Origin: Candidatus Uhrbacteria bacterium
Lineage (GTDB): Bacteria > Patescibacteriota > Patescibacteriia > UBA9934
Length of the DNA stretch: 64,000 bases
Direction of reading: 5' to 3'
Assembly: GCA_903848275.1 (NCBI GenBank)
Contig: CAINGB010000025.1
Location: 4,713 to 68,712 of the forward strand
Shown here: positions 3,101 to 45,040 of the stretch, one piece after another
How the letters are laid out: every line of letters begins with the position of its first letter
How positions within the stretch are numbered: position 1 is the stretch's first letter
Position numbers and translations under genes: made by a program
Notes under the pieces: model-generated
Seen by the model: only the letters and a program-made list of their open reading frames with translations
What the model was told of the DNA's origin: nothing
Databases searched by the model: none

Positions 3101-6100
3101 CGGAACCGAGAGTTGGCACGTCGGAAGTAGCGTAGGTGGAGCTGTAAGTGCTGACTTCACTACTGATAGTGCGGAGGTCGGCCAAGCGTTTAACGTCGCG
3201 AGTTAATTTTATTTTGTTATTAGCACAAGTTTCGCCGGTAGCACAGTCGGCGTCGGCCGTACAAGTCTCAGTCGTGTAAGCTGAGCCGTCGGAACAGAGA
3301 GCGACGTCGCTGACGTTGGTGGCGAAAGAGAGGTTGGCGAGGAGCTGGTCGTAGATGGCGATGGTAGAGTCGCTGGCGCCTTCGTTGTAGGAAATGACGT
3401 AGATATTTGGGTAGAGAGTAGCGCCACTTTGGTTGACGGCGGCGATATAGGTGGTACGGCCGTCTTTAACAGCTTGGAAGCCGTCGGCGGTAGTGACAGA
3501 TGGACTGCCCGAGAAACCTTGAGCTGTGTACCAGGCCAGCGGGCTCAAGTAGTCGGAGTTGGTGACCACACGGTAACCAATAGCGTCGCCGCTGCCGTCA
3601 TTAACTTCGAAGAGATACTCCTTGAGGATATTGTCGGTCGTCGAGTAGTCGGCGGCGTTTTGGACGGTCAGAGCTGGATAGTCGTCCGTGGTGTCGGTGG
3701 TAGCTCCGGCGTCGCGGCAGTAGAAGTCCGAGAAGTTCATCCAACCAGAGCCAATGACAGCGCCGGTAGCCAAACTAGCGTCGTCGCTCCAAGGGAAGAC
3801 GGTGGTTTTGACGTCGGGCCAAGTATTTTCACAGAGGAAAGCGACAACTTTTTGCGTGCCAGCAATAGACGTACCTTCAGAAGTACCGAATTGATCGTAG
3901 TCGATGGTGGCGGTGGCCAATACATTAGCGTCGCCGTTCTTGCCGACAGCGGCGACCGCGGCAGTATCGGTAGCGCTAGGATCTGTGCTGCCGGTAGCAG
4001 TCACGATGGTAGCATTCATGTCGTCGGTCCAAGCCCAATTCCACGAGTAAACGCCGGACAAAGATTCGATTGGTTCGCTGGTCGTGCCGTTAAAAGTGTA
4101 AGCGGTGGCTGTAAAGTCGTGGCTTTCCGTAGCTTGTGAGAAGTAGTTTGGACTATCGGTATTGCCGTCTGTGACAGCTACACTGTCCAAAGTACAGATT
4201 TCTGAACCAGTTGAGAACTCTTGAGTGGCGGCGCCATGTACGTTATACATCGCTACCCCGTCAACAGAATGGACGCCTGGATGTGAAGCGTCAGTAACGT
4301 CGCTGTCAGTCATGACTTCTAGAGTGTAGTGAGCGTTGGCTAGCAAGGGGACGTCGTAGTGCATGGTGACTTTATAGCTAGTTACGTCAGGTGATGTTTC
4401 GATAGCGGTTTGTGAATAGGAAGCGACAGGCACAACACAATCGCCGGCAGCAGCCTCTGCTGAACGACCGGTGAAGAGCTGACGGACGTTAAGCCAGCTA
4501 CGAGAATACCAAGGAAGGTGCGAACTAACAGCCATGGCGAGCGAAGTGTGATCGCTAGGACAGAGGTGGCCAGGAACGGTAGTTAAGTCGAGCTTAGCAA
4601 ACATGAGCGGTTGTGCGGTAGCTGGCGCGGTGGGTGCAGTCAAGAACGTCGAGAGATCCATCTCGCTGCTAAAGAGACCGGATAGCTCGGCATTGCGGCA
4701 GACATTGCGTCCGGTTGGATGCAGGCTGACTGTTGGGCGAGCTAGGCAGCAGTTATTAACGCCGACACCAGTGGCTAATGGCAAATGACAGTCGAGATCG
4801 CTAACAGCTGAGCAGGAGAGAGAATAGGTGGTAGGTGTGGCTGAAGTAGTGATGCCAGAAACTGGTTCCGTGACGTACATGGAAGCAATGGCCAGCTTGG
4901 TAGCTGGGTCGACTTCCTGCGCGGCGTGGAGGTCAATGGCGGCCAATTGAGTGTCGTCAATACGGCTATCGCCACCAGAGGATTCACAAGTAGCGTATTC
5001 ACCAAGGCCGACCGTGCCATCACCGCAGAATGATGGAGTAGTGTAGGAAGTAGAGGAGCCAAGAAGGGTGCAAGATGATGAGCAATACTGTTGACCGTCG
5101 CAGTCTTCACCGGCACCAGTGGCAGCTTGAGTAGTGGCACCATCGCCGCACTTGCTGGCCCAGAAAGCACCACCAGCCGAACCTTCACGGAGACAGGAAG
5201 CGGAACAACCGTCACCACTGACACTATTGCCGTCGTCGCAAGTTTCGTAGTTTGGAGTAATGGTGCCGTCGCCGCAACGAGCGCCACCGATGTCAGCTGA
5301 ACTGACCGTGCCTTCGTTCAAGCAGAGTGAAGAACAACCGTCACCATTGGCCACGTTGCCGTCGTCGCAGTCTTCACCGCCCTGAGTAGGGTCATAAGCA
5401 ATGTCGTTGTTGCCGCAAGTGGTGTCGACAGAACGGGAACCTTCGTCAAGACAAGTGGCGGAACAACCGTCACCGTTCTTGGTGTTGCCGTCGTCGCAAT
5501 CTTCGCCGCTGCCGTCGCCAGCGCGATCGAGATGACCGTTGCCACAAACTGGCGCCCAGGTTGGACCACCGTTGCTACCTTCACGGAGACAGGATGATGA
5601 GCAGCCGTCGGCATTGGCAGTATTGCCGTCTTCACATTCTTCGCCGTGCAGAGTGTCGATGTGTCCGTCGCCACAAATTGCGGCGTAGGCCTGGCTGCCG
5701 CCTGGTGTACAAAGTGAGGTACAGCCGGCTGCAATGTCGTTCTTATTGGTGTCGATAGTAGCGCTTGGCAGCCAGTTGGCGACGTTAATGGTGCTGCTGT
5801 GGCCATTGTCGGTCCAGTTATGGAAGCTCCAGTTGTAACCGGTAGTGGCCAACAGCTGACCGGAGGTGGAACAGGCGTCAGGTACGCCGTAGGCAGAGAC
5901 TGCAAAGTTCTGACGCTCGCCAACCGTGGATGCCGTAGCGGCGTCCGGAGTAACGGCCAAACGGCTGACAGCACAAACGTCGGTGCCAGATTTCACGCCA
6001 AAGGTCCAGGAATAATCACCGGAGTAATTAGTGCGGGTTAAAGCAACACCACTTGGGGTAGCGACGTCACCCGAGATGACTACACGGTAGAAGGTACCAG

Positions 6101-9100
6101 GAGTGAGGTTGGTGCCAGAAGGTAAGGCAATGTCAGCTTGTTTGCAGTGAGTCGAGGCGTCGCTGGCGCAATTGGAGGCGCTCACTGAATAGGCGCGCAC
6201 TTCGTCGCCAACGCCGACGTTACAGAGTTCATTAGGACAAGCGTAGAGTTTAACGGCACCAGGAGCGACAAGCGTCGCGGCGTCCATGTCGGTATTGAAG
6301 GAGGCACCAATTAAACTGTTACGGCAAGCGCCGTCACAGCTTGGCCAGAAATCGGCGACGTAAGGATCCGTAAAGTTAATTGTGAGCACAGCGTTACCGT
6401 CGACATTGCTGGCTTGCTCTTGGGCGGTGACGTCCGTGGTGCCTTCGGCGTTGGCCTGAACGAGAGTGCAATATGAGTTACCGCTGGCACAGGCGTCACT
6501 CGAAGCAAGACCAGCGATACTTGGATCTACTGTCCAGTTGTAGGTGTACTTACTAGCATCGAGAACGACACAGCCGTCGCTTGGTAAGGCGTTGAAGGTG
6601 TCGGTGTTGCCTTGGGCGTCGATGGTGGCGGTAGCCGGCGAAACTGAGACATTATTAACAGCACAGGAAGCACCGGTACTGGAGACTAGGAAATGCCAAG
6701 AGTAATCGGCAGCCATAGCAATGCCGCCAGGGGAAGACTTGGCCGCGGTGCTGACCGTAACCTTGTAACTCGCAGCGTTAGCAAAAGGTGTATTTGGGAC
6801 CCAGGTGAAGGTGGTTGGCGAGGAGTCGGAAATAGTGAGAAGGCCGTCGGCCGTAATGTCCGTGCCGCCAGTGCAAGCGTCGCTGCTACACTTTTCGATT
6901 TTGACGGCGTCGTCGATAGTGCCGCGGTTCATGAGTTCCGTGAATTCAGCGTAAACTACAGCCTGAGGGCAGACGTCCGTAGTGAAAGTAGAGTTTGGTA
7001 CAGCGCTGATGCGACCACCAGGGGTGAGAGTACACTCAGTGACAATCTCTGGAGTTGTCGGAATTTTACCGGTTGAGAAATACCACTGATAGGCCGCTGG
7101 ACCTGGTGGGAGGGTGGTGGTAGTGGCGGCGCCGTAAGTGAAGTTGAGGGTGTTACTCGTGGCACCAGCCGCTGAGGTGATCTGCACTGGTCCGGAGGTA
7201 GCGCCTACTGGAGCCTTGACGGTGACAGCGGTGCTATTCCAGGCGCTGGTTAAAGTAGCTGGGATAGCGGAAAAGAAATCAACTGCGCCTGTACTTGAAC
7301 CGAGACTGCCGGTGATAGTAACCGTGTCACCGGCGGCGCCAGTGTTGGGCGAGATGGAACAGATGCCAGGGCTAGGCGCATTAGAAGTGATAGTGAAATC
7401 AGTAAGAGCCGAAGAGGCGCCGCTTTGGGCGACGAGATAAATGGCAAAATCAGTACCGGCGACAACCGGATTACCGTTTTGATAACTAGCCGGTACAATG
7501 ACAGTAACCTGAGTGTCAGACCAATAATCTGAGCAGGCGGCCGGGAAATCGACGCTAGCCAAGGCTTTGTAACCAGAAGTTTTGTTTTCGAAAAAGACTT
7601 GGCCGATATTGGCACCAAAGTTGCTGCCGGTTAAGGTAATGTAGTCGCCAATGGCAGCTGAGCTTGGGCTGATACTGGCGATGATTGGGACGGTTGTTGT
7701 AGCGGTCGCCAGGCTGTAGAGAATAGTATTGGAAGCCACGCCGCCCACAGTAACGCCGACTGGGTAGCTACCGTCACGAGCCGAAGGAGCCGTAACGTTA
7801 AGGGAACTATCGCTCCAGCCGCTGTAAGAACCGGCCGCGTTAGTACCGAAAGCAACAGTTGAGGTGCTTTGGGCGTCGCCGAAGTCTAAACCAGACAAAA
7901 CCACGGCGTCAGTTGGTGCGCCAGAGGCTGGCAACAGTGAACAAAGTTTAGGATGAACGACGTCGTTCACCACGAAGTCGTCGAAAATTTGACCGTAGTC
8001 GTCGTTACTCGAGTCACTGAGAGGCGTAGTAGCGCCAGTTGTGACCGTAATTGGGCCAGTCACAGCACCAACTGGAACCATCACAATCAAGCCGGTAGAA
8101 GACCAGGTGCTGCAAGATGGGCTGAGAGCGACGACTGTGCCGCCGTTAGCTGCGGTAAAGGTCACGGTTGGTTGTGTGTCGCCGAAGCCAACGCCGTCGA
8201 TAGTCACGAAGGTGCCAACAGCACCGGAGAGTGGCGAGATGCCAGTAATTTCTGGCAAGGCGGTACAAATGCCGTCCACACAGCTATCGCTTGGGCCGCA
8301 GTCGGCGTCAGAAGTACAGATGCTGCCAGAACAAGCGCCGCAGTAGTCGACGTTAGCGCTATCGCCACCACAGTTAAGGCCAGTTTCACCATGCGAGGTG
8401 TCGATAACGTCGTTAAAGCACCAAGGGCCACGGGCCGTAACATGAATGGTGTCGTCGCTCGTGTTGCCGGCGATGTCGGTGACGGTGGTGGCTAGCTTGT
8501 AGCTAGTGCTGTTGACGAGAGCTGTGGTATCCCAGTTAGTGGCGATGGTGGTGTCAGAAAGATCGGGGCCGGTGGCACCAACGGAGTCGAACTGCACGTC
8601 TTCTGCGCTAAAACTGGCGTCCGCCACTTGGCTGTCGTCTGTGGCATGGACTTGGACGAGGGCAGAAGAACCAGATTCCACGCTGCCGCTTGGGATAGTG
8701 ATGACGGCGGTTGGGTTAGCGACGTCGACGAGGTTGCCGGTGGTGAAGGAGGAAGTACAGCTGGTGGTGGTACAGACAAGCGTAGTACCGTTGGTGCTTT
8801 TTACGGCCGTGGAAACACTGACCGAGAAGGCAGTGTCTGCATCAAAACAGAAACGGGTGTCATTTGGTGATGGACAAGCGGCGTTAGGCCGGAAGCTGGC
8901 ACTATTACTGCTAACCGTGATGGTGCCGTCGATGACTGCGCCGCTAGCGGTGTTTTTGACGACTAGATTATTAGCAAGAGTAGCGGCGTCGAGAGTCTTG
9001 GAGAAAGTAACTTTAAGGAGGACGTTGCGGATGGCGACCGGGCCGTCTGGTGAATAGTCCGTCACCGAGAAGGCTGAGGTGCTGCTACTACCGCCGAATC

Positions 9101-9527
9101 CCCCGCCGCTGCCGTTACCACTGCTGGTGTTGCCGCCGCCAGCGCCAGTGGCGTTAAGCAACGCGGAAAGGATGAAGCTGGCAATCGCGAAGGAGAGCAG
9201 GATGATGGCCAGGCCAATGACGCCACGAATGAGGATTTTCTTGGCGCGTTCTAATTTTTCTTCGTTGCCGGCCGCGGTCATCCAAGTAAAGCCACCGTAG
9301 AGGACGATAAGTACTGAGAGAATACCGAGAACGCCAATGACCACGCGGATGATGCGAGCGATGATGATTTTAGGGTCTTCCGCCGTGAGGCCGGAGGCAG
9401 CGCCAACGTCGGCCAGGCTACTGGTGACTTGAGCTAGGAGGTGTGGAGCGTGCAAAAATACGCCAGCCGCAATGAGGCCAAGGACAGAAGGAAGAACGTA
9501 TTTAAGGCGGAACCAACGCATAGCCAA
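120..9527 (-). CDS. Giant (3135 aa) secreted or surface-anchored multidomain protein. N-terminal TM segment plus TrbC/VirB2-like pilin-type domain, then a Gly/Ser linker, Ig/IPT-like repeats, at least 12 Myxococcus-type Cys-rich repeats and a possible vWA-like C-terminus.
   Basis: One uninterrupted 9.4 kb ORF. N-terminus: hydrophobic segment, then ...LYGGFTWMTAAGNEEKLERAKKILIRGVIGLAIILLSFAIASFIL (pilin-like amphipathic/TM helix pair). Repeats CGDGHIDTLHGEECEDGNTANADGCSSSC, CGNGHLDRAG..EDCDDGNTKNGDGCSATC and others match the C-G-D-G-x-E-x-C-D-D-G-N-x-DGC-x-C pattern. IPT-like ITGISPLSGAVGTFVTIDGVGFG. C-terminal DIYVVFVTDLTTAMSS.. segment is vWA-like. Confidence 0.85.
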   Translation of the reverse strand: MAMRWFRLKYVLPSVLGLIAAGVFLHAPHLLAQVTSSLADVGAASGLTAEDPKIIIARIIRVVIGVLGILSVLIVLYGGFTWMTAAGNEEKLERAKKILIRGVIGLAIILLSFAIASFILSALLNATGAGGGNTSSGNGSGGGFGGSSSTSAFSVTDYSPDGPVAIRNVLLKVTFSKTLDAATLANNLVVKNTASGAVIDGTITVSSNSASFRPNAACPSPNDTRFCFDADTAFSVSVSTAVKSTNGTTLVCTTTSCTSSFTTGNLVDVANPTAVITIPSGSVESGSSALVQVHATDDSQVADASFSAEDVQFDSVGATGPDLSDTTIATNWDTTALVNSTSYKLATTVTDIAGNTSDDTIHVTARGPWCFNDVIDTSHGETGLNCGGDSANVDYCGACSGSICTSDADCGPSDSCVDGICTALPEITGISPLSGAVGTFVTIDGVGFGDTQPTVTFTAANGGTVVALSPSCSTWSSTGLIVMVPVGAVTGPITVTTGATTPLSDSSNDDYGQIFDDFVVNDVVHPKLCSLLPASGAPTDAVVLSGLDFGDAQSTSTVAFGTNAAGSYSGWSDSSLNVTAPSARDGSYPVGVTVGGVASNTILYSLATATTTVPIIASISPSSAAIGDYITLTGSNFGANIGQVFFENKTSGYKALASVDFPAACSDYWSDTQVTVIVPASYQNGNPVVAGTDFAIYLVAQSGASSALTDFTITSNAPSPGICSISPNTGAAGDTVTITGSLGSSTGAVDFFSAIPATLTSAWNSTAVTVKAPVGATSGPVQITSAAGATSNTLNFTYGAATTTTLPPGPAAYQWYFSTGKIPTTPEIVTECTLTPGGRISAVPNSTFTTDVCPQAVVYAEFTELMNRGTIDDAVKIEKCSSDACTGGTDITADGLLTISDSSPTTFTWVPNTPFANAASYKVTVSTAAKSSPGGIAMAADYSWHFLVSSTGASCAVNNVSVSPATATIDAQGNTDTFNALPSDGCVVLDASKYTYNWTVDPSIAGLASSDACASGNSYCTLVQANAEGTTDVTAQEQASNVDGNAVLTINFTDPYVADFWPSCDGACRNSLIGASFNTDMDAATLVAPGAVKLYACPNELCNVGVGDEVRAYSVSASNCASDASTHCKQADIALPSGTNLTPGTFYRVVISGDVATPSGVALTRTNYSGDYSWTFGVKSGTDVCAVSRLAVTPDAATASTVGERQNFAVSAYGVPDACSTSGQLLATTGYNWSFHNWTDNGHSSTINVANWLPSATIDTNKNDIAAGCTSLCTPGGSQAYAAICGDGHIDTLHGEECEDGNTANADGCSSSCLREGSNGGPTWAPVCGNGHLDRAGDGSGEDCDDGNTKNGDGCSATCLDEGSRSVDTTCGNNDIAYDPTQGGEDCDDGNVANGDGCSSLCLNEGTVSSADIGGARCGDGTITPNYETCDDGNSVSGDGCSASCLREGSAGGAFWASKCGDGATTQAATGAGEDCDGQQYCSSSCTLLGSSTSYTTPSFCGDGTVGLGEYATCESSGGDSRIDDTQLAAIDLHAAQEVDPATKLAIASMYVTEPVSGITTSATPTTYSLSCSAVSDLDCHLPLATGVGVNNCCLARPTVSLHPTGRNVCRNAELSGLFSSEMDLSTFLTAPTAPATAQPLMFAKLDLTTVPGHLCPSDHTSLAMAVSSHLPWYSRSWLNVRQLFTGRSAEAAAGDCVVPVASYSQTAIETSPDVTSYKVTMHYDVPLLANAHYTLEVMTDSDVTDASHPGVHSVDGVAMYNVHGAATQEFSTGSEICTLDSVAVTDGNTDSPNYFSQATESHDFTATAYTFNGTTSEPIESLSGVYSWNWAWTDDMNATIVTATGSTDPSATDTAAVAAVGKNGDANVLATATIDYDQFGTSEGTSIAGTQKVVAFLCENTWPDVKTTVFPWSDDASLATGAVIGSGWMNFSDFYCRDAGATTDTTDDYPALTVQNAADYSTTDNILKEYLFEVNDGSGDAIGYRVVTNSDYLSPLAWYTAQGFSGSPSVTTADGFQAVKDGRTTYIAAVNQSGATLYPNIYVISYNEGASDSTIAIYDQLLANLSFATNVSDVALCSDGSAYTTETCTADADCATGETCANNKIKLTRDVKRLADLRTISSEVSTYSSTYATSDVPTLGSGTFVRGLGASVWGSWTDLLGGALANSSLVADPLNAFLGCGTAPLASYDSATCVNQANGQYICPAGSHVYHYKAAGSASYTLYADLEYATGAWYYDYDTSATDAVTYQVSSPLSTAAGFTTAVFCDGTTIYGSTGNCGDGVVNASEVCEIGERGGTTTSCSTTTDTTVLDGTISQVCNSTCSAFIADTSATCVAATCGNGLIDAASEECDDGSLNGRYGYCGSTCKLTVDAFYCGDGSLAGSEACDCSSTSASTDSRPYGGRTDSTDGSTRYCGGSSGSGYLNGDYNSNPNNTCAWDCQGPASYCGDGVIDSGEVCDGAPDSYAGTICNNNSGTMEGQSCDPALLDADCQAGVRSARAKAQAKCGVSNETVQLHGPFTACPITTVCQLSDDATLIGQACTTDDDCGAGGTCSNNTYQTYRTRVCDDDGAHGGTCNWADASTGYEGITCKALNNCGDGVVDTGEECDDGNTNSGDTCTNQCKTNVCGDGYLELDTEQCDEGANNGAGCTSAYESTCTACSVSCKYTSLSGEFCGDGVANGSEYCDAYDLPNSYVPAVEAIYGSSPVTAWDSTMTSTRYTYVGTGTCTSNGQRISVDLNSDGIAAANETEVCQTVGQCNGGDSSDPIRGLSATCLSDADCSSNDCQFPVCANDCGSTCPDTFLSDAMLLTDNQPGAASSSSVDLYSYSATTTSILPNAATITFPACRLGATLTADVSLDNVASPDIYVVFVTDLTTAMSSSLDDVKADLRTAISDLFRQNDNVHIGLVYMPRSGPVATSTFYSAADESTLAGLIDLYTTTSGKPDTASGLNLAQHLLDGTSSVTSNFRKAIVLVQASRASSPSSASTNADSIKAAGYELYTIAPLPSSSSTLIRTIAGWSSNSAARFTALTSDGTIPNTTNHLDYAYNGAASTEIADAFSSIVSSFTGIVVELLTSNGATTTSTTGVVTEGTGVALPWPEGFVCDQTAEQDLPLRVTYTGVGEVNISNIKFNYCAL

Positions 9528-16518: not shown

Positions 16519-17136
16519 TCAAGTCCTGCGTCTTTTAGTTAGACTGATTTGGATAACGCGGCTCATCGGCCTGTAGTCTTGCTTCATGCCGACTATACAG
16601 GCTTCGATGTAAGCTCTTTGACTGCTCTTTTTCCAAGCTATTTGCTGATAACCAATGCGTGTAGCTATAACATCTAAAAATAAACGAATTGTTCGGCCGT
16701 TGCCTTCACGAAAGGGGTGAATAGCATTGAGTTCGCAATGGATGAGGGCGAGCTTGTCAGTAATCTGCTTCTTAGTGTCATCGATGGAAGGAATATTCTG
16801 CCTGAGAATGCGATCGAAATCTGCTAGAGCCGAGCCGATAAAATTAGCCGAACAGAACATGGCGTCACCCTTACTAATATTTACGGTACGAATTTTACCG
16901 GCCCAGACATAAAGAGGTTCCAGAAAATAATAGTGAATTTTTAATAAAAATGAAACATCGATAACTTTAGGAATGGCGGCATTGGGTCCTAAAAAATATT
17001 CTTTAGCATCTAAGTAAAGAATAGCCTCAGTGTTCTCGAGTTTGGCTTGGTCTTTAATACTGAGTTTATTTTTCAGAACGCCATCTTCCATGCCAGCCTC
17101 GCCGGCAGTCGAACTATACCGAGAAGGCGCGGCCAT
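16519..17136 (-). CDS. fic: Fic/Doc family protein (toxin of a class I FicTA module)
   Basis: Canonical Fic motif HPFREGNGRTIR. Confidence 0.85.
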   Translation of the reverse strand: MAAPSRYSSTAGEAGMEDGVLKNKLSIKDQAKLENTEAILYLDAKEYFLGPNAAIPKVIDVSFLLKIHYYFLEPLYVWAGKIRTVNISKGDAMFCSANFIGSALADFDRILRQNIPSIDDTKKQITDKLALIHCELNAIHPFREGNGRTIRLFLDVIATRIGYQQIAWKKSSQRAYIEACIVGMKQDYRPMSRVIQISLTKRRRT

Positions 17137-18874: not shown

Positions 18875-18879
18875 GTCGT

Positions 18880-20313
18880 ATGTCAGCCGAAAATCCAACG
18901 CGTATTCCAAAAGTGGCCTTGATCGGGCGTACCAACGTCGGTAAGTCGACGCTTTTTAATAAATTGATTGAGGAACAGCGTTCGCTCGTGTCCGACGTCG
19001 CTGGTACCACCCGTGACCGTTTTGAAGCGGACTGTATTTGGCGCGGTCAGGTGATTCGTTTGATTGATACTGGTGGCTTGGACGTCGACCCAAAGCTGGA
19101 GATTGAACGCGGTGTGATTGAGCAAACTGAATACGCGATTAAGGAAGCTGACTTGGTTTGTTTCTTGGTCGATTTGACCGTGGGCCCCACCGTCGACGAC
19201 TACGTAATCGCCAAGAAATTATTCGCGGCTGGTAAGCCAGTAATTGTCGTTGGTAACAAGGGCGATACTCCAGCCCTCCGAGCTAGTGCAGAGAGTGACA
19301 CTTGGAAGAGCTGGCCGCTTAGCCGCCCACTCGCCGTTTCTGCGGCTCGTGGTATTGCCGCTGGTGATTTGCTCGATGAGGTTTACAACGGCTTGAATAA
19401 GGCTGGCGCCCCACCAACCGACGTGACGAACGTTATCCCAATGGAGGTAGCGGTGCTCGGTGAACCAAACGTCGGTAAGTCTACCTTGCTTAACGCGATT
19501 TTGGGTGAGAAGCGTTTTATTGCATCGTCAATTGCGCACACCACTCGTCAGCCAAACGAGGTGAGTGTAAAAATTGGTAAACAGAACTACGTCTTTGTGG
19601 ACACGGCCGGTATTCGCCGTCAGTCACGCCGCTTGCAAGCTGGCAGCTTCCTCGAAAAGCACGGCGTCAAACAAACTGTGGAATTATTGAAGAAGGTAAA
19701 CGTCGTTTTGTTCGTGCTCGACATGAGCCAGAAGATTGACGTGCAGAACAAGCGCTTGGCTGGTTTGATTGCAGAACATGGCACCAGCGTCGTCATTATC
19801 GCCAACAAGTGGGACTTAATTCCAGACAAGGACACCACGACCATTCTCAAGTACGAGGAATATATTCGCGCTCATTTGCCGCAGATCAACTACGCACCAA
19901 TTCTCTTCATCTCCGCTTTGACCGGTCAACGCGTCGGCGACATCATGAAAAAGATTTCGAGCGTGTTCAGCAGCCGCTTTACACAGTTGCTCGATACGGA
20001 ATGTAAGGAGTTTATTTCGAAGTGTATTGCTAAGCACAAGCCAAGCAAGAATAAAGGTACTTGGCACCCGAACATTACGGAGTTCGTGCAGACCACCATC
20101 AACCCACCACGCTTCCGCTTGACCATCAACGCTCCACGCGAAGATGCTTTGGCCGATAGCTACGTCCGATTCTTGGAACGTTTGATGCGTGATGAGTTCA
20201 ACTTTGTCGGCACGCCAGTTTCAATTCGCGTGTTAGCGGTGCAGCGTAAGCATGGTGAAGCACGTACGCCGATGAAACGAGTCAAAACTAAAATGGGAGG
20301 AAGACATAATTAG
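18880..20313 (+). CDS. der: GTPase Der (EngA): two GTPase domains plus a KH-like domain
   Basis: GRTNVGKSTLFN and GEPNVGKSTLLN P-loops. DTGG/DTAG motifs. Confidence 0.9.
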   Translation: MSAENPTRIPKVALIGRTNVGKSTLFNKLIEEQRSLVSDVAGTTRDRFEADCIWRGQVIRLIDTGGLDVDPKLEIERGVIEQTEYAIKEADLVCFLVDLTVGPTVDDYVIAKKLFAAGKPVIVVGNKGDTPALRASAESDTWKSWPLSRPLAVSAARGIAAGDLLDEVYNGLNKAGAPPTDVTNVIPMEVAVLGEPNVGKSTLLNAILGEKRFIASSIAHTTRQPNEVSVKIGKQNYVFVDTAGIRRQSRRLQAGSFLEKHGVKQTVELLKKVNVVLFVLDMSQKIDVQNKRLAGLIAEHGTSVVIIANKWDLIPDKDTTTILKYEEYIRAHLPQINYAPILFISALTGQRVGDIMKKISSVFSSRFTQLLDTECKEFISKCIAKHKPSKNKGTWHPNITEFVQTTINPPRFRLTINAPREDALADSYVRFLERLMRDEFNFVGTPVSIRVLAVQRKHGEARTPMKRVKTKMGGRHN

Positions 20314-20321
20314 TTCGCTCG

Positions 20322-20448
20322 CAACTGCCGTGTCTCCTGTTCCTAGCGGCGCCTCGACAACCGTACCGGCTGGCTCACCTCGTATGACTCGGGGGCCGGC
20401 ACAGGGCCGAGGCTGGCGTCGTCACAGGAGACAACGGCAGTCGCTCGC
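20322..20448. repeat. GC-rich structured intergenic element with a ~20-bp outer stem. It carries a ~40-nt motif shared with 22229-22270.
   Basis: Arms gcaactgccgtgtctcctgt / acaggagacaacggcagtcgc. Shared core ctcacctcgtatgactcggg(g/c)gc(c/t)ggc(a/g)cagggccga. Confidence 0.5.
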
Positions 20449-20523
20449 TCTTAAAGGCCTCCGTCTTGCTAAATAGTTTAAACTACCAACTACTAACTAC
20501 CTACTACCAACTTTCATACTCTA

Positions 20524-21086
20524 TGGCAATCATGATCGTGGGGCTCGGTAATCCAGGTGCAGAGTACAAGAAGACCCGCCACAATGCGGGTTTTTTGGCG
20601 CTTGATAAGTTGGCGGCAGAATGGGGTGCGAGCTGGCGAGTGAATACTACAGCTAAGGCCGAGGTGGCAGAGGTGATTGTTGGCGAGATGAAAATTGTGC
20701 TCGTGAAGCCACAAACTTTCATGAATAATTCGGGGCTCGCAGTAGCGTCGCTTATGCACCGTTATAAGATTACGATTGAACGAGTGTGGGTGGTTTACGA
20801 CGACGCAGCTATTGCGAACGATCAAGTGAGAGTAAGGCGTGGCGGCAGTGCTGGCGGTCACAATGGACTCAAGTCGATTATTGCTCACAACGGCGACCCG
20901 TTTGCGCGTTTCCGTATTGGCTTGGGTAATCCCCCAGAACGAGTACCGCTCGAAGAGTTTGTGTTGCAGAATTTTAAGGCCGATGAGATGACGCTGCTTG
21001 AGGATAAATTAAACGTCGTGATTGAGCTCATTAACGAAGCCCGAGTGACCGGCGTGCAGGAAAAAACGGTAACAATCGCCACATGA
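20524..21086 (+). CDS. pth: Peptidyl-tRNA hydrolase
   Basis: MAIMIVGLGNPGAEYKKTRHNAGF N-terminus. Confidence 0.85.
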
Positions 21087-22171
21087 TCTCCCCCTACCGC
21101 TTAGCCCTGACGCATTTTAACGACCTCACCATCGGCCCAGTCCGCCATGCGAGCTTGCTTGAAGTTTTGGGCAGTGACGAAAAGATTTGGCGAGCAACCA
21201 CCGACGAACTGCAGAGTGGCGGCTTGAGTCGCGGGATGGCGGCGAAGTTTATCGCCTGGCGCACCACGCAAGACCCGCAGGCCCTGCTCGATGATACCTT
21301 GAAGCGTGGGATTAGCTTGGTGACGCTCGATGACCCAGAATACCCAGAACTGCTCCGCGCCATTCATGACGCACCGTATGTGCTCTATTATCGCGGTACG
21401 TTGCCGCCGGCAGATGCATTGCTTGTCGGCGTCGTGGGGTCGCGACAGGCTTCGCAGTATGGTTTAAAAGTAGCTGGTGAATTGTCTGAAGCTCTAGCTA
21501 GGCATCATTTGGTAATAGTAAGTGGCCTGGCCTGGGGTATTGATGAAGAGGCGCACAAAGCGACGGTTAAAGTAAATGGTAAGACGATTGCCGTACTTGG
21601 CTGCGGTTTAGATGCCAATGATTCTTATCGAAAAATACAACTAGCTGAAGAGATCCTCGCTAAAGGCGGAGCGGTAATTAGCGAGTACCCACCAGAGATG
21701 CCTTCGCTTACTCACCATTTCCCAATTCGTAACCGAATAATTTCTGGCATGAGTAAAGGTACCCTGGTGGTCGAGGCAGCTGAGAAGTCTGGCTCACTAA
21801 TAACGGCACGAGCGGCCTTAATGGAAAATCGTGAAGTATTTGCCGTGCCTGGATCTATTCACTCCCCCACTTCTGTTGGTACTAATCGTTTGTGTCGTGA
21901 TGGCGCTCATGTGGTGACCTGTGCCAATGACATCCTTGAAGTACTCGGCGTAACACCAAGAGTGACTTCAACGGAAGTTCCGGCCGCTATGATACCTCCT
22001 GCTGCACCAGAGGCTAGGGCGATTCTAGCGCTACTAAACCACGAACCGAAACACATCGACGATTTGGCTTTGACTGTTAATCTACCGAGCCATACCGTCG
22101 GCGCAACGTTGACGATTATGGAGATTGAGGGTTACGCTCGGCATGTTGGCGGTGGAAATTATACGAGGTAA
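21083..22171 (+). CDS. dprA: DNA processing protein DprA (Smf)
   Basis: Rossmann-like DprA core LLVGVVGSRQAS...VSGLAWGIDEEAHK...VVEAAEKSGSLITA. Start overlaps the pth stop (ATGA). Confidence 0.85.
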   Translation: MISPYRLALTHFNDLTIGPVRHASLLEVLGSDEKIWRATTDELQSGGLSRGMAAKFIAWRTTQDPQALLDDTLKRGISLVTLDDPEYPELLRAIHDAPYVLYYRGTLPPADALLVGVVGSRQASQYGLKVAGELSEALARHHLVIVSGLAWGIDEEAHKATVKVNGKTIAVLGCGLDANDSYRKIQLAEEILAKGGAVISEYPPEMPSLTHHFPIRNRIISGMSKGTLVVEAAEKSGSLITARAALMENREVFAVPGSIHSPTSVGTNRLCRDGAHVVTCANDILEVLGVTPRVTSTEVPAAMIPPAAPEARAILALLNHEPKHIDDLALTVNLPSHTVGATLTIMEIEGYARHVGGGNYTR

Positions 22172-22179
22172 ACGTCAGT

Positions 22180-22420
22180 GAGTTCGCCTAACGCTTCGCT
22201 TCGCCGAAGTCGTCAACCGCACCAGCCGTCTCACCTCGTATGACTCGGGCGCTGGCGCAGGGCCGACTTCAGCTCAGCTCATCGTCAGTCGCAACTCACT
22301 TATCGAGTCAGATGATACAGGTAGCAATGAGGCGAATGAATGCCGGCCCTGCGGAATCCCGCCGAGTCAGACGAGGTATGGTCTGGGATTCTGCGGTTGA
22401 CGGTATGAGTGAGACGAAGT
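22180..22420. repeat. GC-rich structured intergenic element. It carries a direct copy (22229-22270) and an inverted near-copy (~22350-22372) of the motif shared with 20367-20410.
   Basis: gtctcacctcgtatgactcgggcgctggcgcagggccga versus ggctcacctcgtatgactcgggggccggcacagggccga. A reverse-complement-like ccgagtcagacgaggtatgg lies downstream. Confidence 0.45.
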
Positions 22421-22448
22421 GCTATCTGTATCATCTGAATCTGTGAAT

Positions 22449-23705
22449 ATGAAAAATTATAAAGAAGCGGTGCAGCGATTGATTAGTCTCAGTAATTTGG
22501 AAACGCCGTGGCGCGGGAGTCAGGAGAGTTTGCAGGATTCGCTCAAGCGCACCAAGCAGCTGCTAACTAAGCTCGAGTACCCGGAGCGTGAGTTGAAGTT
22601 TGTGCATGTGACCGGCACGAGCGGTAAAGGCAGTGTGACTAATCTGATTCACGAGATGCTCTTGGCGGATGGTCGGACTGTGGCTAGTTATACGTCGCCG
22701 CATACTACCACGCTGCTTGAGAGGTTTAGAGTGAACGAGAAGCTGATCGAACCGAAGCTGCTCGTGCAGGCCATCGAGCTCGTGATTGCGAGTTATGAGG
22801 CTCATCTGGTAGAAGGAAAACAAGCACTCAGCTATTTTGAATTAGCGACCGTGGTGGCGCTGGTAGCTTTCGTGCTGGCGAAGGTTGAATGGTGCGTGCT
22901 CGAGGTGGGACTCGGCGGCCGCTGGGATTCGACCAATGTGATTCCTAAGAAAGAGGTGGCGGTGATTACCAACGTCGACCTTGATCATACGGATATTTTG
23001 GGGAATAGCGTGAAGGAGATTGCGCAGGAGAAAGTGGGAATTATTACGGGACGCTGTGCGGTTATTTCTGGCGTCGTCCAGCCGAATCTAAGGGAGTTGA
23101 TAAGCGACGTGGCGAGCGATAAGAAGGCGAGCGTAAGATTCATCGATGCGCCGAATAGTGATCATCGATTGCACAATGCGTTGATAGCGACGGCAACGGC
23201 GCAAGCGGTGGGAGTAAAGATTGAAGTGATCGAAAAGGCATTGACGAAGACCAGAGGACTGCCCTGCCGGTTTGAAGTGATGAGCGAGAAGCCGCTCGTG
23301 ATTGTCGATGGGGCGCATAATGAGGCCAAGATGAAAGGAACGGTCAGTCTGCTCAAATCGATTAAGCGCGGAAAAGTTCATGTCGTCTTTGGCTGCAAGC
23401 ATAGTAAAGATGCGGGGGCGATGCTAAAGTCGTTAATGCCACTAGCCGATGTGATTCACACGACGCGTTACCAGCATGGTTATGGCGCGCCAGAGAATCC
23501 GGCGGTGCTCGCTAAACTGATTACGAAGAATAAGCGCGGCAAGACCTGGCTCTTTGCCGACGAGGCACTGCATTTTGTACTCGAGGCGATGAAGCCGGAG
23601 GATACGCTACTAATTACTGGATCGCTCTATTTGGCTGGAGAATTGAGAACGCAATGGGTGAGTGAAGAATCAATTGTGAAGAAGCAGTCGAGTCAAGTTA
23701 AATGA
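22449..23705 (+). CDS. folC: FolC-type Mur-ligase family protein (folylpolyglutamate/dihydrofolate synthase-like)
   Basis: HVTGTSGKGSV P-loop, YTSPHTTTLLERFRVNE, and Mur ligase middle and C-terminal domains. Confidence 0.7.
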   Translation: MKNYKEAVQRLISLSNLETPWRGSQESLQDSLKRTKQLLTKLEYPERELKFVHVTGTSGKGSVTNLIHEMLLADGRTVASYTSPHTTTLLERFRVNEKLIEPKLLVQAIELVIASYEAHLVEGKQALSYFELATVVALVAFVLAKVEWCVLEVGLGGRWDSTNVIPKKEVAVITNVDLDHTDILGNSVKEIAQEKVGIITGRCAVISGVVQPNLRELISDVASDKKASVRFIDAPNSDHRLHNALIATATAQAVGVKIEVIEKALTKTRGLPCRFEVMSEKPLVIVDGAHNEAKMKGTVSLLKSIKRGKVHVVFGCKHSKDAGAMLKSLMPLADVIHTTRYQHGYGAPENPAVLAKLITKNKRGKTWLFADEALHFVLEAMKPEDTLLITGSLYLAGELRTQWVSEESIVKKQSSQVK

Positions 23706-23882
23706 CTCAAACTCGTCAGTCGGCCAAGGCTCGGGGTGCAAAAGTTCGTCGGGTCCTGCCGCTGCGGACCCCGCTGGGTGCTCGCAAGCTGCGCGCCCAA
23801 GCAGGGGCCTCCCTTCGCGTCACCCGACTACAGGAATTAGGCCTGCCCCTCGCTACTTGGCCTTATGGGCTGCATAAAAAGT

Positions 23883-23911
23883 TTGACATAACGGGCTCTG
23901 GAGGCTATCGT
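23883..23911 (+). promoter_or_regulatory. Sigma70-like promoter of topA (TTGACA-17-TATCGT), about 11 nt before the ATG, so a near-leaderless mRNA
   Basis: ttgaca taacgggctctggaggc tatcgt, then ATG at 23923. Confidence 0.5.
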
Positions 23912-23922
23912 TCGCAGCAAAT

Positions 23923-26205
23923 ATGTCTAAACTTGTCATTGTCGAGTCCCCTACTAAAGCTAAAACTATTACCAAATTTTTGGGGAAAGAATTCACAATT
24001 CTTTCTTCTTTTGGTCATATTCGTGACTTGCCAAAGAAGTCCACCGCGGTCGACGTCGAGCATGGCTTTACGCCAACTTACGAAGTGCCCGTGGATAAGA
24101 AGGCTAAGGTGACGGCGCTTAAACAAGCGGCCAAGGGTGTAGATGAAGTCTACCTCGCAACCGACGAAGACCGTGAAGGAGAAGCGATTGCCTGGCATAT
24201 TGCTGAGGTGCTTAAGCTCGACGTCGCCACAGCCAAGCGCATTACTTTCCACGAAATTACCAAGGCCGCGATTGTGAACGCGGTGGAGCATCCAAGGACC
24301 ATCGACATGAACATGGTCAACGCGCAGCAGACGCGCCGCATTTTGGACCGTTTGGTTGGTTATGAATTGTCGCCGTTATTGTGGAAGAAGGTGCAGCGCG
24401 GACTTTCGGCTGGTCGCGTGCAGAGCGTGGCTGTGCGTTTGGTAGTTGAACGCGAACTGGAGCGCAACGCTTTTAAGAGCGATGAATACTGGACGATCGA
24501 AGCGACGTTTGAGAAAGACGGCGCGGTGCTGGAAGCTAAGTTGAACAGTATTGACGGCAGGAAGCTGGAGAAGCTCGATATTAAAAATGAGGCCGATGCC
24601 AAGAAGATTGTCGACGACGTGACTGGTGTCAGCTTTGTCGTTGATAAGATTGAGTTAAAAGATGCTTCACGTAAACCGCCGATTCCTTTGACGACGTCGA
24701 GTTTGCAGCAGGATGCATACAACCGTTTGGGCATGAGTGCTAAGCAGACCATGACCTTGGCGCAGAAGCTGTACGAAACGGGTAAGATTACTTACATGCG
24801 TACTGACTCCCAGAATTTGGCGGAGCAGTTTACGAGTGCCACACAAGATTATTTGCAGACGACTTTCGGTGCTGAATACGCCAAAGGTGCAGTTAAGTAT
24901 GCCACTAAGAGTAAGGGAGCGCAGGAAGCGCACGAGGCTATTCGTCCAACTGATGTGACCGCGTCACCTGAGAGCTTGCAAGCGAGTCTCGAAAGTGGCG
25001 AATGGAAACTGTATGATTTGATTTGGCGCCGCACAGTGGCCAGCCAGATGCCAAGCGCCAAGATGCGTCGGACCGCCGTCGATCTACTCGGCAACAAACA
25101 TATTTTCCGCGTGAACGGCAGCACAGTAGTGTTCCCAGGTTTCATGAAAGTATGGCAAGCAAGTGAAGACAAGCTCTTGCCGGTAATGGCGCAAGGTGAC
25201 GTGATTGGTGAGGCCAAGGAGATAAAGCCGGAGCAGCACTTCACCGAACCAGCTGCCCGCTACAGCGATGCGACTTTGATTAAGGCCTTAGAAGAATACG
25301 GCATTGGTCGCCCTTCTACTTACGCCCCAACTTTGACGACGATTATTGACCGCGGCTACGTGCTGCGCGACGATAATAAGAAGCTCTTCCCGTCTGACAT
25401 TGCGATCATCGTGACGGATTTGCTGAAGACGCATTTCCCGAATATTGTCGGCTACGATTTTACCGCCGACATGGAGTTGAAGCTCGACGAAGTGGCTGAG
25501 GGTAAGCAAGACTGGCAGAAGATTTTGGGCGATTTTTATGGCCCGTTCCATGCACAAATTACCGAGAAGACCGGTGATTTAAGCCGGGCTGACGTCATGA
25601 AGGAACGTAGCCTGGGCGTCGACCCTAAAGACGGCCTTGAGATTATTGTACGAACTGGGCGCTTTGGTCCGTACGTGCAACGCGGCATTGTGAGTGATGA
25701 GAATCCGAAACCACCACGCGCCTCGCTGACCAAAGATCAACTGATGGATACGATTACCCTCGACCAGGCCTTGAAATTGTTGCTGCTCCCCCGCTTGGTC
25801 GGTAAGCACACGAATGGCGAAGATATTATTGCCAACCTAGGCCGCTTTGGTCCGTACTTGAAGTGCGGCACGGTGAACATTACTTTGCCGCCGGAAGATC
25901 ACCCGGCGGAAGTGACGCTCGAACGGGCGATTCAGATTTGTACAGAAGGCGTCGCTAAAAAGGCCGCGGCCATGAAGCCACTAGCCGAACTCGGTACTGA
26001 CCCGACGAGTAAAGGTGAGATTGTTATTCGTAGTGGACGCTTTGGTGACTATATTACGGACGGCAAGACCAACGTGACGGTGCCGAAGAAAATTACCTGG
26101 CAAGACGTGACACCGGAAATGGCGATCGAGATGCTAGTCAAGAAGCGAGCGTCGCCCAAGAAGGCTTGGGGGAAGAGGAAGAAGAAGAGTGATGATAATG
26201 ACTAA
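23923..26205 (+). CDS. topA: DNA topoisomerase I with C-terminal GRFGPY repeat tail
   Basis: MSKLVIVESPTKAKTI... Toprim plus Top1A core. Four C-terminal RFGPY/RFGDY repeats. Confidence 0.9.
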   Translation: MSKLVIVESPTKAKTITKFLGKEFTILSSFGHIRDLPKKSTAVDVEHGFTPTYEVPVDKKAKVTALKQAAKGVDEVYLATDEDREGEAIAWHIAEVLKLDVATAKRITFHEITKAAIVNAVEHPRTIDMNMVNAQQTRRILDRLVGYELSPLLWKKVQRGLSAGRVQSVAVRLVVERELERNAFKSDEYWTIEATFEKDGAVLEAKLNSIDGRKLEKLDIKNEADAKKIVDDVTGVSFVVDKIELKDASRKPPIPLTTSSLQQDAYNRLGMSAKQTMTLAQKLYETGKITYMRTDSQNLAEQFTSATQDYLQTTFGAEYAKGAVKYATKSKGAQEAHEAIRPTDVTASPESLQASLESGEWKLYDLIWRRTVASQMPSAKMRRTAVDLLGNKHIFRVNGSTVVFPGFMKVWQASEDKLLPVMAQGDVIGEAKEIKPEQHFTEPAARYSDATLIKALEEYGIGRPSTYAPTLTTIIDRGYVLRDDNKKLFPSDIAIIVTDLLKTHFPNIVGYDFTADMELKLDEVAEGKQDWQKILGDFYGPFHAQITEKTGDLSRADVMKERSLGVDPKDGLEIIVRTGRFGPYVQRGIVSDENPKPPRASLTKDQLMDTITLDQALKLLLLPRLVGKHTNGEDIIANLGRFGPYLKCGTVNITLPPEDHPAEVTLERAIQICTEGVAKKAAAMKPLAELGTDPTSKGEIVIRSGRFGDYITDGKTNVTVPKKITWQDVTPEMAIEMLVKKRASPKKAWGKRKKKSDDND

Positions 26206-33633: not shown

Positions 33634-33712
33634 AGTATGAGTTTACGAGTTGGTAGTTAGTAGTTTGTAGTTGGTAGCTTCCGTAATCAGTGAGCCAACT
33701 ACCGACTACCCA

Positions 33713-34273
33713 CTACAAACTACTAACTGCCAAGTTACTGAGCAGTGCATCAATCTTCGCATTGACGTGGAGGGTGCTGTAGTCGGGCAGCTCGGAGACT
33801 TCATGCACGCCGAAGAAGCGGAGGGCGTCCGTGGATAAGCGGTAAGTTGGTTGCATTTTGACGACGTCGTCGCGTTCGTCGACCAGGCCACGAAGCTGTA
33901 AGTTGCGCAGGATGAGGGAGCAATTAACGCCGCGAATGGCTTCGATTTCTGGCTTGGTGAGCGGCCCGCGATAAGCGATGATGGTGAGGGTTTCGAGCGA
34001 TGGTCGAGTCAGTTCTGTGTCGAGCTCGACGTTGGTAGCTTTGGCGACGAGATCCGCGTGCTCGGGGTTGGTGACGAACTGGATCAAGTCATCATCGATG
34101 AGGAGATGGATGCCGGACGATGAGATGTTATGGGAGGCGGCCAGAGTAGTAATAGCGGCGCTAACTTCGGCTTCGGCCACGCCCACAAGTTTGGCCAGTT
34201 GCTTGCGCGAAATCGGTTTCGTTAAGACGAAGAGGAGGGATTCAAGCTGGCTGCAGAGTAATTCAGTGTCCAT
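33713..34273 (-). CDS. scpB: Segregation and condensation protein B
   Basis: Tandem winged-helix ScpB core LESLLFVLTKPIS...IAYRGPLTKPEIEAIRG. Confidence 0.85.
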   Translation of the reverse strand: MDTELLCSQLESLLFVLTKPISRKQLAKLVGVAEAEVSAAITTLAASHNISSSGIHLLIDDDLIQFVTNPEHADLVAKATNVELDTELTRPSLETLTIIAYRGPLTKPEIEAIRGVNCSLILRNLQLRGLVDERDDVVKMQPTYRLSTDALRFFGVHEVSELPDYSTLHVNAKIDALLSNLAVSSL

Positions 34274-34995: not shown

Positions 34996-35042
34996 CTGTG
35001 GATAAGTGCTGTATACGTTGAGCGTATACGCTCAACGTATAC
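34996..35042. repeat. Perfect DnaA box (TTATCCACA, minus orientation) followed by a 32-nt perfect palindrome (gtatacgttgagcgtatacgctcaacgtatac) in the scpA promoter region
   Basis: + strand tctgtggataagtgct | gtatacgttgagcgtatacgctcaacgtatac. The palindrome is self-complementary over all 32 nt and contains 3 GTATAC. Confidence 0.7.
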
Positions 35043-35043
35043 A

Positions 35044-44977: not shown

Positions 44978-45040
44978 ATTTATACCGCTCGTTTTGTTGG
45001 GAAATTAGTGAAAACCAGACGATCGACGACCTGACCCCAG

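What the first reader, a model, noticed from the sequence alone, without database searches (positions are those of the whole stretch)
20322..23880. Family of GC-rich structured intergenic elements between der, pth/dprA, folC and topA, sharing a ~40-nt core motif
The der-pth spacer (20322-20448) and the dprA-folC spacer (22180-22420) each form long imperfect stem-loops and share the core CTCACCTCGTATGACTCGGG(G/C)GC(C/T)GGC(A/G)CAGGGCCGA. The second spacer also carries an inverted near-copy. The folC-topA spacer (23706-23880) is similarly GC-rich and highly self-complementary. These could be REP/MITE-like repeats, structured ncRNAs, or regulatory attenuators in a compact genome.
Basis: seen in the sequence. 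Interest (0 to 1): 0.5.

Follow-up and report, generated by a model that had tools for sequence, protein, structure and literature searches.

The report
Hairpin repeat family in Uhrbacteria spacers
The GC-rich spacers are insertions of small hairpin-forming repeats scattered through the tiny genomes of a few related Candidatus Uhrbacteria; the main family is undescribed, and its shape is kept intact far better than neutral DNA.

Summary
The shared core is real. The window holds three copies of one ~135-nt hairpin element: A 20316-20451, B1 22173-22306, and B2 22304-22440 inverted. Fourteen further full copies lie beside unrelated genes in three or four related Uhrbacteria MAGs. Across the 17 copies, 96% of stem cells pair and 20 of 31 pairs show compensatory changes. 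Loops and an internal junction are invariant.

Close relatives have 1-41-nt spacers or overlapping genes at the same sites, so the elements are lineage-specific insertions. Where B1/B2 is orthologous it is 80-90% identical, against 42-58% at four-fold sites.

The folC-topA spacer does not share the core and does not fold better than shuffles. It is a mosaic insert from a second repeat family.

Rfam, phage, plasmid, E. coli and metagenome searches found nothing similar.

Best reading: a new REP/REPIN/ERIC-like family of interspersed palindromic repeats, retained as strand-specific hairpins. A true ncRNA family is not excluded. An attenuator reading is rejected.

The parts
20316..20451 (-). Element A, a 'type A' copy of the K family. 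It has an outer shell (TCGCTCGCAACTGCCGTGTCTCCTGTTCCTAGC ... GCGTCGTCACAGGAGACAACGGCAGTCGCTCGC) around the K core.
   Evidence: CM R1 scores it at 138.5 bits. RNA fold z = -3.8. RNA MFE is -69.4 kcal/mol on + and -81.5 on -. It starts 3 nt after the der stop codon (20311-20313). It is absent from the 41-nt der-pth spacer of syntenic L104.
20354..20410 (+). K core of element A: TCGACAACCG, stem, CTCACCTCGTATGACTCGG, stem, CACAGGGCCGA.
   Evidence: 57-nt direct repeat with 22210-22266 at 86% identity. Invariant columns across 14-17 copies.
22173..22306 (-). Element B1, a 'type B' copy. The K core sits inside a locus-specific long stem. The better-folding strand is minus.
   Evidence: CM 111.4 bits. 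RNA MFE is -49.5 on + and -68.0 on -. The orthologous trio shows 45 pairs, 7 of them compensatory. It starts 2 nt after the dprA stop codon.
22210..22266 (+). K core of B1.
22304..22440 (+). The better-folding strand is +, the mRNA sense strand. It ends 8 nt before the folC ATG at 22449. With B1 it forms an inverted doublet.
   Evidence: CM 88.2 bits on the minus strand. RNA MFE is -65.8 on + and -45.9 on -. The orthologous trio shows 48 pairs, 8 of them compensatory. The same doublet occurs in L104 and L119.
22343..22403 (-). K core of B2 (CCGTCAACCG ... ACCTCGTCTGACTCGG ... CGCAGGGCCGG on the minus strand).
23709..23877 (.). GC-rich mosaic insert between the folC stop codon (23703-23705) and the topA promoter. 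It is not a K-family member.
   Evidence: It is absent in L122 (36-nt spacer) and L104, and replaced by unrelated sequence in L119. Fold z = -0.57.
23745..23836 (+). Core of the second repeat family ('C'): GTCGGGT...ACCCGAC closes a predicted three-hairpin fold.
   Evidence: blastn gives 97% identity to L109 6636-6727 and 86% to L081 7768-7853. Alignment and consensus fold are; only 3 sequences and 1 covarying pair.
23721..23759 (+). Left part of outer module 'D' (GGCCAAGGCTCGGGGTGCAAAAGTTCGTCGGGTCCTGC). With 23847-23869 it is contiguous in L019 (about 7334-7272, minus strand); L110 1-34 carries only the right half, at its contig start. CCTGC is repeated at both junctions (23755-23759 and 23842-23846).
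23847..23869 (+). Right part of outer module 'D' (CCCTCGCTACTTGGCCTTATGGG).
23883..23911 (+). Context only: topA promoter-like site TTGACA-17-TATCGT, which marks the right edge of the third insert.
   Evidence: It is conserved next to the folC stop codon in L122 and L104.

Best explanation
These are copies of a previously undescribed family of interspersed, non-coding palindromic repeats (here 'K elements', ~135 nt, with a ~57-nt conserved core). They are confined to a narrow clade of Candidatus Uhrbacteria (CPR/Patescibacteria).

Shown:
- They are multi-copy and lie in intergenic spacers beside unrelated genes, in both orientations.
- They are insertions relative to close relatives.
- They are modular: the same outer shell can carry a different inner hairpin.
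- They can form an inverted doublet (B1/B2).
- They fold as long hairpins whose stems covary while an apical loop and a junction are invariant.
- Pairing is preserved on one specific strand.
- At an orthologous locus they evolve far more slowly than synonymous sites.

Inferred:
- They spread as single-stranded hairpins recognised through the invariant loop and junction by a trans-acting enzyme, in the manner of REP/REPIN elements and single-strand transposases.
- Once lodged between genes, they are retained by the host because the stem-loop itself is useful on that strand, for example as a stable RNA hairpin that protects or demarcates transcript ends, or as a protein-binding hairpin.

The folC-topA spacer is a mosaic of two other small repeat modules from the same 'ecosystem', not a K element.
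For: Three copies lie in the window against 0 expected.

Fourteen further full copies, plus three cut by a contig or locus end, come from MAGs CAYHFQ01 (at least 9 copies), CAITFQ01 and DOZH01, and the DOZH-like groundwater contig L119.

Neighbouring genes are unrelated housekeeping genes: recJ, lepA, an RNase H-like gene, a Wzy ligase and a methyltransferase.

Orthologous sites are empty in relatives:
- L104 has a 41-nt der-pth spacer.
- L122 has overlapping dprA and folC, and a 36-nt folC-topA spacer.
- In L123, der-pth and dprA-folC are 1 and 6 nt apart and folC overlaps topA.

Contigs of the same strain start or end exactly at the K core, and a 5.9-kb MAG contig ends in half-elements at both ends.

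Structure: 96.4% of cells pair against 27-40% when partners are slid, 20 of 31 pairs are compensatory, and 0 of 500 shuffles reach this.

Strand specificity: the reverse-complement strand is more stable in 16 of 17 copies. In the orthologous trios there are 33 G.U cells against 7 A.C cells on that strand.

Constraint: the B1+B2 spacer is 90.5% and 79.5% identical to L119 and L104, while four-fold sites in flanking genes are 49-58% and 42-48% identical.

Modularity: L119 keeps the type-A shell but has a different inner hairpin.

Other small repeat families share the same spacers.
Against: - No transposase or RAYT-like gene was found. This was only a tblastn with remembered query sequences over about 300 kb.
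- No target-site duplication or specific target could be defined.
- Locus-level purifying selection, and the pattern of conserved loops with covarying stems, is what one expects of a functional RNA rather than a selfish repeat.
- The better-folding strand is antisense to the flanking genes in roughly 8 of 12 independent loci. A simple role in the operon mRNA therefore does not fit most copies.
- Only four or five genomes are available, and copies within a genome are not independent.
- No expression data exist.
Confidence: 0.55

Rival explanations
1. K elements are genes or modules for a new class of structured RNA. It would be made from the strand complementary to the reader's motif. The invariant apical loop and the G.U-flanked junction would bind a protein or another nucleic acid, or be catalytic. 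The stems would need only to pair.
For: - Stems covary while loops are invariant.
- G.U is tolerated on one strand only: 33 G.U against 7 A.C cells, and that strand is more stable in 16 of 17 copies.
- Orthologous copies are far more conserved than four-fold sites, with compensatory and G.U-preserving substitutions in locus-specific stems.
- No Rfam family matches, so it would be new.
Against: - No sigma-70-like promoter or intrinsic terminator flanks any window copy.
- The elements abut stop and start codons inside apparent operons.
- Orientation relative to neighbours is mixed.
- Close relatives lack the copies or have swapped the core at the same site.
- Assembly breaks at the core fit a repeat.
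- G.T is also the least disruptive mismatch in single-stranded DNA, so the bias does not prove RNA.
Confidence: 0.27
2. The elements are classical MITEs: deletion derivatives of an insertion sequence, moved by its transposase through terminal inverted repeats. The hairpin would be only a by-product of those repeats.
For: - The size is about 135 nt and the whole element is an imperfect palindrome.
- There is presence/absence polymorphism.
- There are several co-resident small families, including one with AAAACTT/AAGTTTT ends.
- Type A copies carry TCGCTCGC at both ends.
Against: - The outer arms differ completely between subfamilies while the centre is conserved. This is the opposite of a MITE, whose termini are the conserved part.
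- No variable target-site duplication is visible.
- No parent IS was seen.
- Strand-specific pairing and conservation at the orthologous locus are not explained.
Confidence: 0.1
3. The spacers are gene-specific cis-regulatory leaders, attenuators or terminators for pth, folC and topA.
For: They lie between co-directional genes. B2 ends 8 nt before the folC start codon, and on the mRNA strand it is a very stable hairpin.
Against: - The same element lies next to unrelated genes in both orientations.
- It is absent in relatives with identical gene order, which have overlapping genes or spacers of 1-41 nt.
- There is no U-tract terminator.
- There is no riboswitch or leader hit in Rfam.
Confidence: 0.04

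Closest known systems
REP / BIME / REPIN elements with their RAYT (TnpA-REP) transposase (definition taken from PMC8266576; REPINs: PMC3116915)
   Same: Both are intergenic, multi-copy, GC-rich palindromes that fold as hairpins. Both occur singly and as inverted pairs; B1/B2 resembles REP plus iREP. Both have conserved mismatches or bulges and strand-specific recognition logic, and both occur in mosaic arrangements with other short modules.
   Different: K units are about 135 nt (the core hairpin is about 55-70 nt) against 20-50 nt for REPs. No GTAG tetranucleotide lies 5' of the palindrome on either strand. No RAYT gene was found in the DNA held. There is no sequence similarity to E. coli repeats. 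The host is a CPR bacterium.
ERIC / IRU and Correia-type elements (about 100-150-bp imperfect palindromes co-transcribed within operons; recalled from general knowledge, not read here)
   Same: Size, imperfect-palindrome architecture, location in short spacers inside apparent operons, occurrence in both orientations, and insertion polymorphism between related genomes.
   Different: There is no sequence similarity. ERIC and Correia elements conserve their termini, and Correia elements make a TA duplication. Here the centre is conserved and the outer arms vary. Strand-specific G.U bias and swapping of the core within a conserved shell are not features I know for those families.
Multi-copy structured RNA motifs (Rfam-type families such as small self-cleaving ribozymes dispersed in bacterial genomes)
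   Same: A conserved core of about 60 nt, with invariant loop and junction nucleotides, covarying stems, and dispersed copies in either orientation.
   Different: No Rfam model matches on either strand, even at E <= 10. No catalytic-core signature was recognised. Expression is unknown.

Membership tests
REP/BIME (REP-RAYT system) | Palindrome of 20-50 nt | tested here: not met
   Units are 133-139 nt. The conserved core block is 57 nt.
REP/BIME (REP-RAYT system) | Conserved tetranucleotide (usually GTAG) immediately 5' of the palindrome | tested here: not met
   The flanks of 14 copies were read on both strands, and no GTAG abuts the stem. CTAG occurs inside the type-A shell. GTAG-rich tracts occur about 30-60 nt away at some loci, but they belong to a separate 5'-UTR hairpin.
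REP/BIME (REP-RAYT system) | Many intergenic copies per genome | tested here: inconclusive
   All copies are intergenic. At least 9 lie in one MAG and 3 in this 64-kb window.
REP/BIME (REP-RAYT system) | Inverted REP/iREP pairs | tested here: met
   The B1(+)/B2(-) doublet is present in the window, L104 and L119.
REP/BIME (REP-RAYT system) | Associated tnpA-REP (RAYT, Y1/HUH) gene | tested here: inconclusive
The genomes are incomplete and the queries unverified.
MITE | Conserved terminal inverted repeats shared with a parent IS | tested here: not met
   The termini differ between subfamilies while the centre is conserved. No IS was seen in the loci.
MITE | Target-site duplication flanking each copy | tested here: inconclusive
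   No variable direct repeat is seen. TCGCTCGC occurs at both ends of type-A copies but is the same in all of them.
MITE | Insertion polymorphism at orthologous sites | tested here: met
   L104, L122 and L123 lack one or more of the inserts.
ERIC/IRU | Sequence homology to the enterobacterial 127-bp consensus | tested here: not met
   blastn in distant mode found no match in 5,426 E. coli genomes.
Any Rfam 15 RNA family | Covariance-model match | tested here: not met
   Only four tRNAs reach gathering score in the window. Nothing relevant appears at E <= 10 in 20250-23950. No tRNA or tmRNA was found.
Intrinsic terminator | GC-rich hairpin followed by a U-tract | tested here: not met
   No terminator-like site coincides with A, B1, B2 or the third insert.
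Integron attC site | Conserved outer R''/R' boxes (RYYYAAC / GTTRRRY) with a variable centre, all in one orientation | tested here: not met
   By reading the alignment, the centre is conserved and the outer arms are variable. No GTTRRRY box is present, and orientations are mixed.

The most novel reading that the evidence does not exclude
The K motif is a genuinely new structured nucleic-acid class. An invariant 20-nt apical loop and a G.U-flanked 1x2 junction would serve as a recognition or catalytic site. It would be kept under purifying selection in roughly 1-Mb CPR genomes because the host uses it, for example as the partner of an unidentified protein. It would not be merely a selfish repeat.
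Probability: 0.27. Interest if true: 0.65.

Novelty: new variant of a known kind. Interest (0 to 1): 0.45.

Why it matters
CPR/Patescibacteria genomes are small and tightly packed. In relatives, the very genes flanking these spacers overlap or lie 1-41 nt apart. Finding at least three families of hairpin repeats colonising such genomes is therefore notable. One family has a structure conserved about as strongly as protein sequence.

If the elements are mobile, they offer a tractable case of REPIN-like 'replicators' outside the Proteobacteria, and they are a practical cause of assembly breaks in Uhrbacteria MAGs. If they are functional RNA or single-stranded DNA hairpins, the invariant loop and junction define a new motif with an unknown partner.

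In either case, covariance model R1 and the consensus can be used directly to annotate these genomes.

Tried and rejected
- **Genome collection scan** with the 16-nt loop motif. The pattern was too short: about 100 of 114 loci were chance hits.
- **Metagenome scans.** Two scans of JGI metagenome contigs and one of viral contigs, with longer core patterns, returned 0 hits. The gapped pattern was verified to work on held loci.
- **Homology searches.** blastn against phages, plasmids and E. coli genomes found no match.
- **Rfam.** Nothing at gathering score or at E <= 10. ARAGORN found nothing.
- **Weak model hits.** Those at 16919-17042 and 44986-45129 were read and rejected as coding sequence.
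- **Small ORFs in the spacers.** 22240-22446 and 23702-24112 have no Pfam match and do not exist in relatives that lack the inserts.
- **Promoter and terminator scan.** Nothing at the elements.
- **Transposase search.** tblastn with remembered Y1 and RAYT sequences found nothing.
- **Target site.** The search for a conserved target or duplication in the flanks was inconclusive.
- **Replication strand.** GC skew is positive over the whole window. A and B1 fold on the minus strand and B2 on the plus strand, so no single replication-strand rule fits.
- **Literature.** Searches for repeats in Uhrbacteria, CPR or Patescibacteria found nothing relevant.
Full report
**1. What is in the sequence**

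Pfam confirms the gene order lytR-like, der (engA), pth, dprA, a Mur-ligase/FolC-type gene and topA, all on the + strand.

The three spacers after der, dprA and folC are 152-247 nt long with GC of 0.66, 0.58 and 0.61. They are the most GC-rich intergenic DNA in the window, where other spacers are 0.35-0.56 and the whole window is 0.52.

The shared block is 57 nt at 86% identity.

A third copy lies inverted at 22304-22440. Its apical motif ACCTCGTCTGACTCGG is at 22362-22377 on the minus strand.

A covariance model built from 14 copies finds only these three in the 64 kb, at 138, 111 and 88 bits. The next hits are noise inside coding sequence.

Spacers 1 and 2 fold better than shuffles, with z = -3.8 and -4.3. 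Spacer 3 does not, with z = -0.57.

**2. The family elsewhere**

A collection scan with the loop motif was too permissive, but it recovered 13 true loci. They come from three MAGs:
- Candidatus Uhrbacteria Umea1p2_bin-0579 (CAITFQ01);
- Candidatus Uhrbacteria UBA11707 (DOZH01);
- CAYHFQ01, which is labelled 'Gammaproteobacteria' but carries the same elements.

With the syntenic loci found through DprA homologues, the model detects 17 full copies plus truncated ones.

The copies lie in short spacers beside unrelated housekeeping genes: recJ, lepA, an RNase H-like gene, a C39-like peptidase, a methyltransferase and a Wzy-type ligase. They occur in both orientations relative to those genes.

Short-read contigs of the window's own strain begin or end exactly at the K core. 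A 5.9-kb MAG contig ends in half-elements at both ends. This fits a repeat, or strain heterogeneity, at the element.

Nothing similar exists in JGI metagenome contigs, IMG/VR, INPHARED phages, PLSDB plasmids or E. coli genomes. Rfam has no match on either strand.

**3. The elements are insertions**

Relatives with the same gene order show the ancestral state.
- In L123/L124 (DprA 64% identical), der-pth and dprA-folC are 1 and 6 nt apart, and folC overlaps topA.
- In L122 (85%), dprA and folC overlap, and folC-topA is 36 nt.
- In L104 (78%), der-pth is 41 nt with no element and the folC stop codon overlaps the topA -35 box. The B1/B2 doublet is nevertheless present.
- In L119-L121 (89%), the B1/B2 doublet is present. 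The der-pth spacer keeps the outer shell of element A but has a different inner hairpin. The folC-topA site holds an unrelated insert.

Each spacer is therefore a lineage-specific insertion, the sites are reused, and the elements are modular.

**4. Anatomy and structure**

The conserved unit is CG-TCAACCG, then stem P2, then CTCACCTCGTMTGACTCGG, then the return strand of P2, then CRCAGGGC-CG. It sits inside longer stems.

There are two subfamilies:
- Type A has a conserved shell, TCGCTCGCAAC.GCCG..TCTCCT.TTCCTAGC ... GCGTCGTCA.AGGAGA..CGGCAGTCGCTCGC, plus a right-hand tail TACAAGGCTCWGGCTCA.
- Type B (B1, B2, L028, L083) has other arms.

Over the 17 copies, 96.4% of stem cells pair, against 27-40% when partners are slid by 1-3 columns. 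Twenty of 31 pairs show double compensatory changes, and 0 of 500 shuffles reach this. The loop and junction nucleotides are invariant.

**5. Strand specificity**

The same holds as DNA for B1 and B2.

On that strand P1 and P2 form an almost continuous helix with conserved G.U pairs.

I then took the union of pairs predicted on either strand for the orthologous B1 and B2 trios (window, L119, L104). There are 33 G.U cells against 7 A.C cells on the folding strand.

The folding strand is minus for A and B1 and plus for B2. It is antisense to the flanking genes at about 8 of 12 independent loci.

Mutational strand bias cannot explain this, because B1 and B2 sit side by side yet show opposite polarity. 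GC skew is uniform across the window.

**6. Constraint**

Between the window and L119, four-fold degenerate sites in der, pth, dprA and topA are only 49-58% identical. Against L104, sites in der, pth and dprA are 42-48% identical.

The B1+B2 spacer is 90.5% and 79.5% identical over about 240 nt to L119 and L104 respectively. This includes the locus-specific outer stems. There, 7-8 pairs per element changed on both sides, and most of the one-sided changes gave G.U.

Most other non-coding spacers of the window are not alignable between these genomes. The exceptions are a tRNA region and short stretches of 39-73 nt at about 82% identity.

This is selection on the hairpin at this locus, not just recent insertion.

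**7. The third spacer**

The segment 23709-23877 is an insert between the folC stop codon and the conserved topA promoter, TTGACA-17-TATCGT at 23883-23911. It has no K core.

Its centre, 23745-23836, is 97% identical to L109 6636-6727 and 86% identical to L081 7768-7853. In L109 that segment lies next to a type-A copy.

Its outer parts, 23721-23759 and 23847-23869, are contiguous in L019. L110 carries only the right part, at its contig start. CCTGC is repeated at both junctions.

It is therefore a mosaic of two further repeat modules. With three sequences the predicted three-hairpin fold has almost no covariation support.

**8. Interpretation**

The dispersed, inserted, modular and doublet-forming behaviour places these elements with bacterial interspersed palindromic repeats (REP/BIME/REPIN, ERIC, Correia).

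They fail the defining features of REPs as stated in PMC8266576: 20-50 nt, a 5' GTAG, and a RAYT gene nearby. They also fail those of MITEs: conserved termini, a target-site duplication and a parent IS.

Three features go beyond what a purely selfish repeat predicts and keep a functional RNA or single-stranded DNA hairpin reading alive:
- invariant loops with covarying stems;
- strand-specific G.U tolerance;
- locus-level purifying selection.

I commit to this reading: repeats of mobile origin, recognised and propagated as single-stranded hairpins, and retained by the host as strand-specific stem-loops (confidence 0.55). A new ncRNA family is the main rival (0.27). A gene-specific attenuator is rejected.

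The transposition mechanism and the cellular function are inferred, not shown.

Noticed in passing
window 20478-20512 (+) and 33640-33720 (-); also L104 4610-4700, L031 5893-5941, L097 696-736, L119 9382-9431, L122 65-85: CTAC-rich tracts (CTACCAACTAC...) lie 12-18 nt upstream of start codons. At 33640-33720 and in L104 they are the 3' arm of a hairpin. The 5' arm of that hairpin is GTAG-rich and the loop is GGCTCAC... At several loci a type-A K element sits where the GTAG arm would be, and its 'tail' TACAAGGCTCWGGCTCA resembles that loop. CTACCAAC occurs 5 times in the window against 1.5 expected. This may be a separate 5'-UTR hairpin repeat, and perhaps a preferred landing site.
   Followed up: partly
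window 60715-60789; L122 2-27: A 26-nt perfect palindrome, GCCACGTCAGTCGCGACTGACGTGGC, sits inside the loop of a canonical bidirectional terminator (A-run, CTCCCGGAGG...CCTCCGGGAG, T-run). The same palindrome, one compensated pair apart, occurs in the der-pth spacer of L122, at its contig start. It is another small palindrome nested at the tip of a hairpin.
   Followed up: partly
L104 3044-3152; L031 1787-1881; L097 2032-2130: A third small repeat family of about 110 nt, with AAAACTT...AAGTTTT ends. In L104 it fills the lytR-der spacer, which is only 5 nt in the window (18875-18879). This is another insertion polymorphism.
   Followed up: partly
window 35010-35043 and 40402-40445; L096 5660-5707: Perfect AT-rich palindromes: CGTTGAGCGTATACGCTCAACG inside GTATA...TATAC, and GTGGTCTACATTCAATGTATACATTGAATGTAGACCAC flanked by GGATAAG/CTTATCC. 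Both show similarity to a site in L096. They may be operator or terminator palindromes, or yet another repeat.
   Followed up: no
window 120-9527 (-): A very long open reading frame of 3,135 aa. It was not annotated here.
   Followed up: no
L119 9250-9335: At the der-pth site of the closest relative, the conserved type-A shell encloses an unrelated inner hairpin (GGCCTCAGCCCAGAAATGC...GCATTTCTCGGGTCGGCC). This inner hairpin is not repeated in any locus held. The core has been swapped inside a conserved shell.
   Followed up: partly
CAYHFQ01 loci (L019, L031, L053, L073, L081, L096, L097, L110): This MAG is labelled 'uncultured Gammaproteobacteria' in its record. It carries at least 9 K elements nearly identical to those of the Uhrbacteria MAGs, so the label is probably wrong.
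   Followed up: no
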